Of a DNA stretch of 62,708 bases, positions 45,001 through 48,000 are shown piece by piece (position 1 is the stretch's first letter; each line of letters opens with the position of its first letter). The DNA lies in sequence record KP682377.1. One strand, 5' to 3'. Position numbers: made by a program. This stretch comes from Escherichia phage PA16.

Positions 45001-48000
45001 CATGCACTAAGGCTTCATGTAATTGTCAGGGGAACGAACCCTGGTGTTACGACGGTTTATGCTTTCGCGAATATGGTTACTCCACCTTCTGAGTATGGTA
45101 TCGCCATGTATAACCCGGACGGTGAGATGATTTATCATGGCGAAATGATGCTGCTTGACGCGAAGTTAATACCTGTTGATATCAAATTTGAAAAGGACCT
45201 TGGATATCCATGCGCAATCATGCCTGCACTGGTCGGGTATTATAACTGGAAAAGAACTCCTTATGATCGACCGATTTATACCACATCCACTGGTGCTACA
45301 GGAAATAAAATATATTCCTGTGAGCATTATTCCGGTGGTGCAACATGGGATATTCGAAAGCCGTATATAGATAAGGTCCTGGTTATTAATACATCAGTAT
45401 ATGATTAGTTGAAGCGAGTCTTTAATATTCATTTAAAATGTCTAAAAAGATGTATTATTAAAAAGTTTAGCGTGTTATCTGAATACAGGATATCTTAAAT
45501 GAAGAGTATAGCAACACTGGTTGTGTGTGCAATCTCCGGGATTGCCTGTGTAAATTTATCTGCACATGCAGCAGAAGGAGAGCATACAATTTCTCTGGGG
45601 TATGCGCACTTTCAGTTTCCGGGACTGAAGGATTTTGTAAAGGATGCGACTGCTCATAACAGGGAGACTTTCAGTCATTTCGTCAACAGAAACTACTTTT
45701 CTTCATTGGGCGAATATACAGATGGTCGGGTCAGTGGATATGAAGGCAAGGATAAAAATCCACAGGGCATTAATATCAGGTATCGCTACGAGATAACGGA
45801 TGATTTTGGCGTTATCACCTCTTTTACATGGACGCGTTCTCTCACTAACTCACAGACATTTATTGATGTGCAGTCAGCCGATCATACCAGGAAGATTAAG
45901 AATCCGGCAGCTTCTGCCAGAACGGATATCAGGGCGAATTACTGGAGTCTGTTAGCGGGGCCTTCATGGCGGGTTAATCAGTACATGAGTTTATATGCGA
46001 TGGCAGGGATGGGCGTTGCTAAAGTTAGCGCTGACCTGAAAATTAAGGACAATATTAACAGTAGTGGCGGATTTTCTGAAAGCAACAGCACGAAAAAAAC
46101 CTCCCTTGCGTGGGCTGCAGGTGCACAGTTTAACCTGAATGAGAGTGTTACACTGGATGTGGCTTACGAAGGTTCCGGCTCTGGCGACTGGCGCACGAGT
46201 GGCGTTACTGCTGGCATTGGCCTGAAATTCTGACCTGTATCCGGTAACCGTTTACTACCCGCTGTGATGGCGGGTTTTTTATTGCCCGTACAGGGCAAAA
46301 ACCGTAAATTATGCGTGGGTGCCTTTCGGCTGATGGCTGGAGGGTGAACCTGAAGGCCTGATGTGGAAAGGCCCCGAGTCAACTTAACGTTAACCCGAGG
46401 CCCTAACACTTCGTACCTTAAGCAAGTAGAAGGTTAGCGCCTCTCTGTAAAAGGAGTCAAGCGCTATGTCGCAAAAATCGCTTATCACCGTCACAATTTG
46501 CATGACGGTTATCTTCACCATCTGGATGTTGCACGGTTCACTGTGTGAGTTCCGGCTGAATTTGTGGGGAGCGGAGTTTGCGGCGTTCTTACAGTGTAAG
46601 CAGTAGGAAAACCGCGACGGGGACGAGAGTCCCCGTCAACTGGTTGCTGAGGTTCAGCCGATATGGCACCCGTTTCAGGTGAGAGAATGAACGATAAAAT
46701 TCTCTGGTATATGCAGCGTGTTGTGAGAAATTCCCGCAACCCTGAATTTATGAATGAAGTTAAAGACGCCTGCCTTAAAAAGCAGGCGTTTTGTTTTGAG
46801 GCACCTGATGGCTTTTTGGTGCTGCGTTCTGTGCTCAGTGCTGATGGTATCCCTTATGTTCTGGTGTTGCTGGGCGTGTGTACGGGGAGTAACAGCGTTG
46901 AGCGTTACCTGCCGGAGGTGAAGACATTAACCCATCTGGCTGGCGGACGCTGGGCTGAGTTCCATACGGCAAGGCGGGGATTTATCCGGCTGGGAAAACG
47001 ACTGGGCTTTGAGCGAATGCCGGATGATGAGGATGGCTTCATGGTGTTCAGGATAGCGGTCTGACTGCTACAGTTTTCATCATTGTGTTTAAACCAACAT
47101 TGTAATTCACATTCTGACCCTGCTCCGGCAGGGTTTTTTGTTATCCAGGGGGCCATTATGGGTGGAAGTAAAGGCGGTGGTGATACCAAAGTAAAACCAA
47201 CAGCAGCGCAAATAGCACAGGAAGAAGTGGCCTGGAAAGGGTGGCAGGATTACAAAAATATCCTCCGCCCGGCTGAAGATAACTTCATGGAAAAGGTCGA
47301 TGACCTGAACAGTGAGCAGCAGTACGACAATATTGCTGGCACCACAAATCTGGGGTATCAGAAACAGTTTGGCGAAGCACGGAAGGAGCTTGCGGGTAAT
47401 CTTGCTCAGTCCGGCGTTGACCCATCCAGTGGTCGTTTTAATGCGGTAATGAATGCGAACCAGAGTGACCAGGTAACCGGGCAGATTGACACAACCACAC
47501 GGGGGCAGGTATCGCAGGCAGATAAGTATGTTGCCGGGCTACAGGATGTTGCTGCTCTCGGTTCTGGTCAGAAGGCGGATGCGTTACAGAGTTTTAACTC
47601 TCTGGCAGACAGCAGTCTGGCAAAAGCTAAATCGGATGCACAGGCGGCGTTTACGAAACAGCAGGGGCGAGCCTCTCTTGTTGGCGCTGGTCTGGGTGCG
47701 GCAGGTGCATATGCGATGCATAAGGCTGGCGGTAGCGGAGGAAGTGGCGGTGCTAAAACACCTGGCACCGGCGCTAATGCCATTCAGCATCAGGCTCAGA
47801 ACTGGAGACTGTAATTATGGAGTATGGCAAATACGAAACTCTCGCAAGGGCTGGTTATTCAGGAGCAGACCGCCCACAGGGTGACTGGCAGACGTCAGCA
47901 GCGCTGACACGCCAACAATACGACGACTGGCGAACCAGATATTTGCCCCGCGTGGCAAGGCTGGCTGACCTTGGGGAGAACAACAGTCTGATGAATGCAC

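What the first reader, a model, noticed from the sequence alone, without database searches (positions are those of the whole stretch)
46290..46620. Hok/Gef-like type I toxin ORF in the intergenic gap after lom
A 46-codon ORF (46466-46606) with a strong RBS encodes a single-TM peptide carrying the Hok-family signatures (IFT...SLCE-R and E-AAF). It lies in a roughly 400-bp gap bounded by the lom terminator and another hairpin (46614-46640). I could not find an overlapping mok-like reading frame upstream, so if this is a hok locus its regulation may be atypical. A second, canonical hokD-like gene lies at 59266-59421.
Basis: partly seen in the sequence, partly recalled or inferred. Interest (0 to 1): 0.6.

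Follow-up and report, generated by a model that had tools for sequence, protein, structure and literature searches.

The report
Second Hok toxin cassette, without mok
The small gene after lom in this Shiga-toxin phage is a real Hok-family membrane toxin with a Hok-type RNA switch and a predicted antisense antidote; it is already annotated and its peptide already shown toxic, and only its lack of the usual helper reading frame (mok) is unusual.

Summary
ORF 46466-46606(+) encodes a 46-aa peptide that passes Pfam HOK_GEF (33.2 bits, cut-off 22). The window is a 933W-like Stx2a phage.

The ORF lies in a ~390-bp cassette (46282-46672) with the RNA anatomy of a hok/sok locus:
- its own promoter;
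- a 5' end (GGGUGCC) that pairs with a 3' fbi element (GGCACCC);
- an alternative pairing of the 5' end with ucb;
- a target hairpin for the antisense RNA;
- a conserved antisense promoter and terminator hairpin for a ~60-nt Sok-like RNA;
- a 3' protective stem-loop.

Compensatory changes in 38 distinct relatives support both conformations.

It is not new. RefSeq calls it "Hok/Gef family protein". A 2025-26 bioRxiv catalogue lists the exact peptide as 72_1589 and tested it; it is not among the three non-toxic homologs. The studied hokW/sokW is the other locus (59209-59590, minus strand).

The ancestral mok ATG reads CCCTAAC or a variant, and no leader ORF is conserved, yet the peptide is under purifying selection. 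Folding predicts that the switch and the antisense RNA gate the hok ribosome-binding site directly. That step is inferred, not shown.

The parts
46282..46310 (+). Predicted hok mRNA promoter: -35 TTGCCC (46282-87), 17-nt spacer, -10 TAAATT (46305-10); +1 at 46317
   Evidence: Read from the sequence. The T-A-n-A-n-T of the -10 and the spacing to GGGTGCC are invariant in five copies from different genomic contexts. At 8 of 12 matches it falls below the threshold of the promoter scan. No transcript mapping.
46317..46333 (+). tac: the 5' end of the hok mRNA (GGGUGCCUUUCGGCUGA)
   Evidence: The Rfam hok-leader model starts here. It pairs with fbi in the full-length fold and with ucb in the truncated fold. 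It covaries with both partners.
46363..46375 (+). ucb: the alternative partner of tac. In the full-length fold, GGCCCC sequesters GAGGCC.
   Evidence: Folds. The tac/ucb helix is 97% paired, and 4 of its 12 pairs change on both sides.
46397..46443 (+). Target hairpin for the antisense RNA in the truncated mRNA. It holds the former mok Shine-Dalgarno GAGGC (46397-401) and dcb GCCUC (46439-43). The canonical mok ATG is missing here (CCCTAAC).
   Evidence: Truncated fold. GAGGC/GCCUC is invariant or compensated in 38 sequences. Alignment with intact hokA and with hokW shows ATG replaced by AAC.
46363..46424 (-). Predicted Sok-like antisense RNA of about 60 nt: 5' end near 46423-46425, 16-bp hairpin 46404-46368, then UUUCC
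   Evidence: Folds to -39.8 kcal/mol, z=-5.9. It sits where sokW sits relative to hokW. Not shown experimentally.
46431..46460 (-). Predicted antisense promoter: -35 TTGACT (46460..46455), 18-nt spacer, -10 TAACCT (46436..46431)
   Evidence: The -10 is TAACCT in 36 of 38 distinct relatives and TATCCT in 2 of 38. The -35 is TTGCTC, TTGACT, TTGCCT, TTGTCT or TTTACT at 17-18 nt. sokW has the same TAACCT (read from the sequence printed).
46436..46465 (+). Local hairpin AGCGC/GCGCU plus CUCU/GGAG, which sequesters the hok Shine-Dalgarno GGAG (46453-56) in the full-length fold
   Evidence: Fold. The AGCGC/GCGCU helix is 99.5% paired in 38 sequences (helix 8). Opening energies.
46466..46606 (+). hok-family toxin gene, 46 aa (cluster '72', peptide 72_1589 of the bioRxiv catalogue)
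   Evidence: Purifying selection: median pN/pS 0.30, and the third codon position is the most variable. Toxicity.
46615..46638 (+). 3' stem-loop, the likely protective end of the 3'-processed (active) mRNA
   Evidence: The helix is 99.7% paired, and 5 of its 9 pairs change on both sides (helix 18). The role is inferred from plasmid R1 (PMC9841398).
46654..46671 (+). fbi: the 3' fold-back element (UCAGCCGA..GGCACCC) that pairs with tac
   Evidence: MFE pairs 46317-23 with 46665-71 and 46326-33 with 46654-61. In the extension helix, 6 of 8 pairs change on both sides (helix 2).

Best explanation
This is a self-contained hok/sok-type type I toxin-antitoxin cassette (about 46282-46672), carried as a moron between lom and the next late gene of a 933W-like Stx2a phage. 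It is the phage's second hok locus.

Shown here or in the literature:
- It encodes a 46-aa Hok-family peptide of a HokA-like subfamily.
- That peptide was assayed for toxicity when over-expressed and is not among the non-toxic homologs.

Supported by folding and covariation:
- The mRNA starts at GGGUGCC (46317).
- In its full-length form the 5' tac element is locked onto the 3' fbi element (46654-46671).
- Once the 3' tail is trimmed back to the stem-loop at 46615-46638, tac switches to ucb (46363-46375).
- That frees GAGGC (46397-401) to pair with GCCUC (46439-43), forming the hairpin that the antisense RNA targets.

Inferred from conserved promoter and terminator elements:
- An antisense RNA of about 60 nt (46424 to 46363, minus strand) binds that region and keeps the toxin off.

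Inferred, about 0.45-0.5:
- The subfamily has no mok frame, so the switch acts directly on the hok ribosome-binding site.
- In the full-length mRNA and in the antisense-bound mRNA, GCCUC/CUCU is free to sequester GGAG in a local hairpin.
- In the trimmed, unbound mRNA the hairpin is broken and Hok is translated.

The biological role is inferred by analogy only: prophage stabilisation, abortive infection, or help with lysis and phage release as reported for hokW-sokW.
For: Family membership of the peptide:
- Pfam HOK_GEF 33.2 bits against a gathering score of 22.
- PHROG 251, E=2.8e-24.
- RefSeq product 'Hok/Gef family protein'.

Toxicity: the exact peptide is 72_1589, cloned as plasmid LRP157. 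42 of 45 tested homologs were toxic, and the three non-toxic ones are other sequences.

Selection on the peptide: median pN/pS is 0.30. Entropy by codon position is 0.39 / 0.19 / 0.60.

RNA structure:
- Rfam RF01794 matches 46317-46479 over the full model length at 35.6 bits, E=2.6e-6 in the local search.
- The full-length fold is -155.4 kcal/mol, z=-6.9, with the 5' and 3' ends closing on each other.
- On 38 distinct cassettes, 91% of cells are paired. 32 pairs change on both sides, against 19.2 +/- 2.3 in shuffles and 8-22 in slid controls.
- The tac columns covary with both fbi (6 of 8 pairs) and ucb (4 of 12 pairs).

Antisense RNA: the -10 is TAACCT in 36 of 38 sequences, with a -35 at 17-18 nt. 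The terminator-like hairpin has z=-5.9.

Absence of mok.

Direct gating of the hok ribosome-binding site, as the predicted cost of opening GGAG:
- Window: 5.7 kcal/mol full-length, 2.0 truncated, 5.6 truncated with the antisense target blocked.
- Medians over 38 relatives: 6.7, 3.8 and 7.7.
- In canonical hokW the hok SD is predicted open in every state (0.5-1.1). There it is the mok SD that is gated, from 9.4 down to about 3-4.
Against: - There is no experimental transcript, antisense RNA or translation data for this locus. None turned up in the papers searched.
- The Rfam score is below the gathering threshold of 59.
- Neither promoter reaches the threshold of the consensus scan.
- The -10 of the antisense promoter overlaps a stem that is conserved for RNA reasons. 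Its conservation alone therefore does not prove promoter function.
- The Stx-phage copy has no terminator after fbi, unlike the copies in P2-like prophages. The 3' end of the full-length mRNA is therefore undefined here.
[quoted passage not shown] A locus without mok could be translationally silent.
- The gating energies are thermodynamic predictions. 2 of the 38 relatives do not show the drop on truncation.
Confidence: 0.85

Rival explanations
1. It is a translationally silent relic. The cassette descends from a hok/mok/sok locus, but loss of the mok start codon shut off Hok synthesis. The cassette persists only because it hitch-hikes on phages and islands.
For: - In plasmid R1, mutating the mok start codon or inserting early mok stops abolishes Hok production (PMC9841398).
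- The canonical mok ATG is absent in all 38 relatives.
- Chromosomal hok loci were reported unable to mediate post-segregational killing (cited in bioRxiv 10.1101/2025.08.07.668861).
Against: - The ORF is intact in 35 of 38 distinct cassettes from Escherichia, Salmonella and related genera.
- Median pN/pS is 0.30, and the third codon position varies most.
- GGAG at the proper spacing is kept in 37 of 38.
- Both RNA conformations show compensatory changes. A dead locus is not expected to show any of these.
- The peptide is toxic when expressed.
Confidence: 0.1
2. It is a late-gene lysis accessory rather than a toxin-antitoxin module. The peptide would be made mainly from Q-antiterminated late transcripts that read through the lom terminator. 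It would help membrane damage and phage release. The antisense element would be weak or irrelevant.
For: - The cassette lies inside the late region, on the late-gene strand, with no terminator after it.
- The phage's other hok locus, hokW-sokW, is reported to facilitate Sp5 release after mitomycin C (PMC8621323).
Against: - The same cassette, with the same promoter and antisense elements, sits in unrelated places: after ogr at the end of P2-like prophages, in a ure island, next to a relaxase gene, and as tandem copies in Salmonella. It therefore works as an autonomous unit.
- The tac/fbi switch needs a defined 5' end, and it is under selection.
- This rival is compatible with the main explanation as an added role in this phage.
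Confidence: 0.05

Closest known systems
hokA/mokA/sokA of the E. coli chromosome (NCBIfam NF007290; intact copy in strain Ec1119, locus L107)
   Same: - It is the closest characterised peptide: MPQK.. versus MSQK.., TWM/IWM, SLCE, AAFLACK/AAFLQCK. Both periplasmic cysteines are hard-coded.
- The mRNA plan is the same: 5' GGGUGC, AAAGCCCC, GAGGC, GGUUAGC and a 3' GCACCC.
   Different: - The peptide scores only 38 bits on the HokA equivalog model, whose cut-off is 89.
- The leader scores 35.6 bits on RF01794, against 124.9 for hokA.
- hokA has a 70-codon mokA that starts at ATG -60, just after GAGG. At that spot this locus has CCCTAAC.
- The stretch between the target hairpin and the hok ATG is about 9 nt shorter and forms an SD-sequestering hairpin.
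hok/mok/sok (parB) of plasmid R1, the paradigm
   Same: - Toxin fold class.
- tac/fbi closure of the full-length mRNA.
- Switch to tac/ucb after 3' trimming.
- GAGG/dcb stem.
- cis-antisense RNA of about 60 nt from a promoter between the (former) mok start and the hok start.
- Protective 3' stem-loop.
These features are described in PMC9841398 and found here.
   Different: - R1 needs translation of mok as far as the hok SD. This locus has no mok start, and its subfamily has no conserved leader ORF.
- R1 has a terminator after fbi (from my own knowledge of the R1 sequence). The Stx-phage copy has none.
hokW-sokW of Stx2 phages 933W and Sp5 (same window, about 59209-59590, minus strand)
   Same: - Same phage and same protein family.
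- Same -10 (TAACCT) for the antisense RNA.
- Same overall RNA plan.
   Different: - hokW is canonical: 113.5 bits on RF01794, an annotated mokW, and experimental characterisation (PMC8621323).
- The peptides are only 33% identical.
- The predicted antisense target regions share little beyond GGUUAGC, so cross-regulation is unlikely (inference).
- In predicted folds hokW gates the mok SD, whereas this locus gates the hok SD.
Type I systems without a leader ORF, where the toxin SD is hidden by alternative mRNA folds (for example aapA/IsoA of Helicobacter pylori)
   Same: The proposed logic is the same. A 5'-3' locked primary transcript is inactive, 3' processing activates it, and the toxin's own SD is sequestered (comparison drawn in PMC9841398).
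   Different: The sequences and the toxin family are unrelated. The resemblance here is functional, and on this locus's side it is only predicted.

Membership tests
Hok/Gef toxin family (Pfam PF01848) | Peptide of about 50 aa that scores above the curated HMM threshold, with an N-terminal transmembrane helix and a conserved ..LCE..R....E.A.F.. C-terminal part | tested here: met
   33.2 bits against a gathering score of 22, matching profile positions 6-42 of 42. PHROG 251 E=2.8e-24. Aligns with HokA and HokW; C27, A39 and F41 are invariant and E28 is nearly invariant.
Hok/Gef toxin family (Pfam PF01848) | Toxic to E. coli when over-expressed | not testable with these tools
   From the literature only. 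The identical peptide 72_1589 (plasmid LRP157) was among 45 homologs tested under an arabinose promoter. 42 were toxic, and it is not one of the three listed as non-toxic (bioRxiv 10.1101/2025.08.07.668861).
HokA equivalog (NCBIfam NF007290) | Score at or above the equivalog cut-off of 89 bits | tested here: not met
   38.4 bits. HokA is the closest named relative, but this gene is not a hokA ortholog.
hok/sok RNA system (Rfam RF01794 hok leader; Gerdes-type locus) | Leader RNA reaches the Rfam gathering score | tested here: not met
   35.6 bits against 59, although the match covers the full model length and has E=2.6e-6 in a 701-nt search. Nine relatives tested score 37-55 bits. hokA scores 124.9 and hokW 113.5.
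hok/sok RNA system (Rfam RF01794 hok leader; Gerdes-type locus) | Long-range tac/fbi pairing that closes the full-length mRNA | tested here: met
   MFE pairs 46317-33 with 46654-71; z=-6.9. Helix 1 is 98.9% paired. In helix 2, 6 of 8 pairs change on both sides. This is computational evidence only.
hok/sok RNA system (Rfam RF01794 hok leader; Gerdes-type locus) | Alternative tac/ucb and GAGG/dcb pairings in the 3'-trimmed mRNA | tested here: met
   Truncated fold. The tac/ucb helix is 97% paired with 4 compensated pairs. GAGGC/GCCUC is invariant or compensated.
hok/sok RNA system (Rfam RF01794 hok leader; Gerdes-type locus) | A mok reading frame that starts after the GAGG Shine-Dalgarno and is translated up to or over the hok start | tested here: not met
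   No ATG, GTG or TTG frame overlaps hok in the window. The canonical ATG site reads CCCTAAC, or a variant of it, in all 38 relatives. Leader ORFs stop at -81, -73, -60, -46, -38, -31, +80 or +134 in different members.
hok/sok RNA system (Rfam RF01794 hok leader; Gerdes-type locus) | A cis-encoded Sok antisense RNA, with its promoter between the mok-SD region and the hok start and its own terminator | tested here: inconclusive
   TTGACT-N18-TAACCT on the minus strand, conserved in position in 38 of 38 relatives. A 16-bp hairpin followed by UUUCC. It falls below the promoter-scan threshold, and no RNA data exist.

The most novel reading that the evidence does not exclude
This may be a natural two-gene hok/sok lineage, corresponding to cluster 72 of the bioRxiv catalogue. 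It occurs in Stx phages, P2-like prophages and islands of Escherichia, Shigella, Salmonella and Citrobacter. It has dispensed with mok. The structural gate, and therefore the point where the antisense RNA acts, would have moved from the mok ribosome-binding site to the hok ribosome-binding site itself. Antisense binding to the GAGGC hairpin would work indirectly, by releasing an anti-SD strand.
Probability: 0.45. Interest if true: 0.45.

Novelty: already known. Interest (0 to 1): 0.3.

Why it matters
The gene itself adds little. Stx2 phages are already known to carry Hok toxins, RefSeq names this one, and its peptide has been tested.

Two points are of modest value:
- 933W/Sp5-type phages carry two independent hok cassettes, but the published work on hokW-sokW considers only one. 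Phenotypes of hokW deletions, such as phage release and prophage stability, may be buffered by this second locus.
- The cassette belongs to a widespread subfamily, matched in 1675 of 5426 complete E. coli genomes. The subfamily keeps every RNA element of the hok paradigm except mok. If its toxin is translated without a leader ORF, it is a natural test of which parts of the textbook hok/mok/sok mechanism are dispensable.

The subfamily is also missed by Rfam-threshold annotation.

Tried and rejected
- **Hidden mok.** I listed every ATG, GTG or TTG frame in the leader of 58 unique cassettes. Some members have a frame running to +80 or +134, but starts and stops differ between close relatives, so no leader ORF is conserved. 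The GTG at 46363 (24 codons, stop at 46435-37) lies inside conserved stems and is not kept even among Stx-phage variants 92-98% identical. I rejected it as a mok analogue.
- **In-frame extension, as in mokA and mokW.** It is blocked by stops at 46428-30 and 46449-51.
- **The promoter scan** found nothing at its threshold. Both promoters were read by eye and by conservation.
An alignment worked.
- **The species-representative genome scan** gave only 9 loci. Three carry implausible labels (Xanthomonas, Planococcaceae, Vagococcus) and are probably contamination.
- **Searches for transcript or ribosome-profiling evidence** in EHEC papers gave nothing for this locus. The EDL933 RNA-seq/RIBO-seq study lists only Rfam-threshold 'sok' hits.
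- **Searches for a prior description of mok-less hok loci** found none. The library lacks many subscription papers, including Pedersen and Gerdes 1999, and T1TAdb could not be queried.
- **K-12 hokA** was useless for comparison because IS150 disrupts it. I used an intact copy instead.
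Full report
**What the window is**

The 461 bases around the finding are 100% identical to many Stx-converting phages: 933W, VT2-Sakai, Stx2-converting phage I, and PA4, PA5 and others. The PA-series phages have the same length (62,708 bp) and the same coordinates as the window. Rfam finds the expected Stx2-phage landmarks: three tRNAs, STnc100, AsxR and the lambda cIII thermoregulator. The finding therefore lies in the late region of a 933W-like Stx2a phage. It sits between lom (45499-46233; Ail_Lom 1.5e-32) and the homolog of 933W gene L0129.

**Checking the observation**

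- The ORF 46466-46606(+) exists. It encodes MSQKSLITVTICMTVIFTIWMLHGSLCEFRLNLWGAEFAAFLQCKQ.
- GGAG lies 9 nt upstream of the ATG.
- The peptide passes Pfam HOK_GEF (33.2 bits; gathering score 22; E=4e-8).
- It matches PHROG 251 over its whole length (2.8e-24).
- The best NCBIfam model is HokA, but at 38 bits it is far below the equivalog cut-off of 89.
- The lom terminator (stem 46257-46275 plus a T-run) and the hairpin at 46615-46638 are real.
- No ATG, GTG or TTG frame upstream overlaps the ORF. The hok frame itself is closed by stops at 46428-30 and 46449-51.
- The 'second hok gene' at 59266-59421 is on the minus strand (Pfam 81 bits). Its leader scores 113.5 bits on Rfam RF01794. In the 933W record this is hokW/mokW/sokW, the locus studied in PMC8621323. 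That paper does not mention the lom-adjacent gene.

**Already known?**

The original 933W record leaves the gap unannotated. RefSeq/PGAP calls the ORF 'Hok/Gef family protein' (WP_000078907.1). A Pharokka-annotated phage record calls it 'MokW-like host killing'.

A 2025-26 bioRxiv catalogue of Hok homologs (10.1101/2025.08.07.668861) lists the identical peptide as 72_1589, in one of its 'high-abundance' clusters. The authors cloned it as plasmid LRP157 under an arabinose promoter. They report that 42 of 45 tested homologs were toxic and name the three that were not; 72_1589 is not among them. They state that they did not analyse mok, Sok or the mRNA.

The toxin is therefore known and tested. 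The locus architecture has not been described in anything I could search.

**The cassette and its relatives**

Homologous DNA occurs in 1675 of 5426 complete E. coli genomes. It sits in very different places:
- after lom in Stx phages;
- after ogr at the end of P2-like prophages;
- in a ure island;
- next to a relaxase gene;
- as tandem copies in Salmonella.

Homology starts at the -35 TTG and the -10 TAnAnT and ends at GGCACCC. This delimits an autonomous unit of about 390 bp, 46282-46672 in the window.

The 46-aa peptides form a tight subfamily (MSQKS..WMLHGSLCE..GAEFAAFLQCKQ). It is found in Escherichia, Shigella, Salmonella, Citrobacter and E. albertii.

Across 35 intact coding sequences the median pN/pS is 0.30, and the third codon position is the most variable. 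The ORF is therefore maintained as a protein-coding gene.

**RNA anatomy**

The Rfam hok-leader model matches 46317-46479 over its full length at 35.6 bits. That is below the gathering score of 59, but E=2.6e-6 in the local search. Nine relatives tested also fall below threshold (37-55 bits). An intact hokA scores 124.9 and hokW 113.5.

*Full-length form.* RNA 46317-46676 folds to -155.4 kcal/mol with z=-6.9. Its 5' end pairs with the 3' end: 46317-23 with 46665-71, and 46326-33 with 46654-61. This is the tac/fbi closure of hok mRNAs.

*Trimmed form.* If the RNA is cut back to the stem-loop at 46615-46638, three things change:
- The 5' end pairs with 46363-46375 (ucb).
- GAGGC (46397-401) leaves ucb and pairs with GCCUC (46439-43, dcb).
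- This forms a long hairpin, 46397-46443.

This reproduces the published R1 switch (PMC9841398).

*Covariation.* On an alignment of 38 distinct cassettes:
- The full-length structure is 91% paired.
- It has 32 pairs that change on both sides. Shuffles give 19.2 +/- 2.3, and slid controls give 8-22.
- In the tac/fbi extension, 6 of 8 pairs are compensated.
- In the 3' stem-loop, 5 of 9 pairs are compensated.
- The alternative tac/ucb helix is 97% paired, with 4 compensated pairs.

The same 5' columns covary with two different partners. That is what a selected bistable switch should show.

**Antisense RNA**

On the minus strand, TTGACT (46460..46455), an 18-nt spacer and TAACCT (46436..46431) occupy the position of the sok promoter. 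The -10 is TAACCT in 36 of 38 relatives and TATCCT in 2. TAACCT is also the sokW -10 (read from the sequence printed); from memory, not checked here, R1's -10 is TATCCT. A TTG-type -35 sits at 17-18 nt throughout.

Transcription from about 46424 would give a 16-bp hairpin (46404-46368) followed by UUUCC, an RNA of about 60 nt (z=-5.9). That is the size and relative position of sokW.

This is sequence-level evidence only. The -10 overlaps a conserved stem, and neither promoter reaches the scan threshold.

**mok**

In intact hokA (strain Ec1119) a 70-codon mokA starts at an ATG 8 nt after GAGG, in frame with hokA. hokW has an ATG at the homologous site, as does plasmid R1 (PMC9841398). At that site the window reads CCCTAAC, and all 38 relatives lack the ATG.

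Leader ORFs do exist in some members. Their starts and stops differ even between close relatives: -81, -73, -60, -46, -38, -31, +80 and +134. Nothing like mok is under selection.

In R1, translation of mok is required for Hok synthesis. Either this subfamily is silent, or it is translated another way. Purifying selection on the peptide, the retained GGAG, and the compensated RNA switch argue against silence.

**Proposed mechanism (inferred)**

In the full-length fold, GGAG (46453-56) is held in a local hairpin, AGCGC/GCGCU plus CUCU/GGAG. The AGCGC/GCGCU stem is 99.5% paired across relatives. In the trimmed fold, GAGGC takes GCCUC, which breaks that hairpin.

Predicted cost of opening GGAG:

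| State | Window (kcal/mol) | Median of 38 relatives |
|---|---|---|
| Full-length | 5.7 | 6.7 |
| Trimmed | 2.0 | 3.8 |
| Trimmed, antisense target blocked | 5.6 | 7.7 |

36 of the 38 relatives show the drop on trimming.

The same calculation on hokW gives a different picture. There the hok SD is open in every state (0.5-1.1 kcal/mol). It is the mok SD that is gated, from 9.4 down to about 3-4.

The gate therefore appears to have moved from the mok SD to the hok SD. These are thermodynamic predictions. I put this step at about 0.45-0.5.

**Context-specific points**

Copies in P2-like prophages and islands have a rho-independent terminator right after fbi. The Stx-phage copy has none, and the next gene follows within 15-25 nt. 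Its full-length 3' end is therefore undefined. Q-antiterminated late transcripts should also read through the cassette.

The cassette may therefore add to Hok production late in induction, as reported for hokW-sokW (PMC8621323). This is speculation.

**Verdict**

The gene is a known, annotated Hok-family toxin whose peptide has been tested. The only part that goes beyond the record is the subfamily-wide absence of mok together with the predicted direct gating of the hok ribosome-binding site. Interest is modest.

Noticed in passing
window 59209-59590 (minus strand): This is the canonical hokW/mokW/sokW locus: Rfam sok 113.5 bits, Pfam HOK_GEF 81 bits. The phage therefore carries two independent hok cassettes. 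The published hokW-sokW study does not mention the second one.
   Followed up: partly
window 46663-47064: The ORF after the cassette is annotated from ATG 46663, but PHROG 610 aligns only from residue 9. The true start is probably ATG 46687. With the annotated start, the ORF would overlap the fbi element.
   Followed up: partly
window 46672-46700, compared with L005, L006 and L007 just after GGCACCC: Copies of the cassette in P2-like prophages and islands have a CCCGCAG...CTGCGGG-TTTT terminator right after fbi. The Stx-phage copy lacks it, so sense transcripts should run into the next late gene.
   Followed up: partly
L099 1501-1641 and 1991-2131; L100 1501-1641 and 1995-2135: Salmonella contigs carry two tandem copies of the 46-aa hok cassette about 490 bp apart.
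   Followed up: no
L010, L011, L013: Contigs labelled Xanthomonas pisi, a Planococcaceae MAG and Vagococcus sp. carry this enterobacterial cassette. Their peptides are 100%, 76% and 76% identical to the window's peptide. This is probably contamination or mis-binning.
   Followed up: no
window 25208-25324 (minus strand): An ALIL pseudoknot (121.5 bits), the frameshift element of IS3-family transposases, which indicates an insertion sequence inside the phage genome.
   Followed up: no
window 17165-17363: isrK, C4 antisense RNA and c4-a1b1 hits, which together point to a P1/P7-type antisense immunity module in this Stx phage.
   Followed up: no
window 48273-48524: An 83-aa glycine-rich ORF whose homolog RefSeq labels 'bacteriocin' (L008 4515-4766).
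   Followed up: no
L005, L006, L007, L014, L015, L016, L099, L103, L105: Every detected leader of this hok subfamily scores 37-55 bits on Rfam RF01794 (gathering score 59; L016 gave no match at E<=0.001). Rfam-threshold annotation therefore systematically misses the subfamily.
   Followed up: yes
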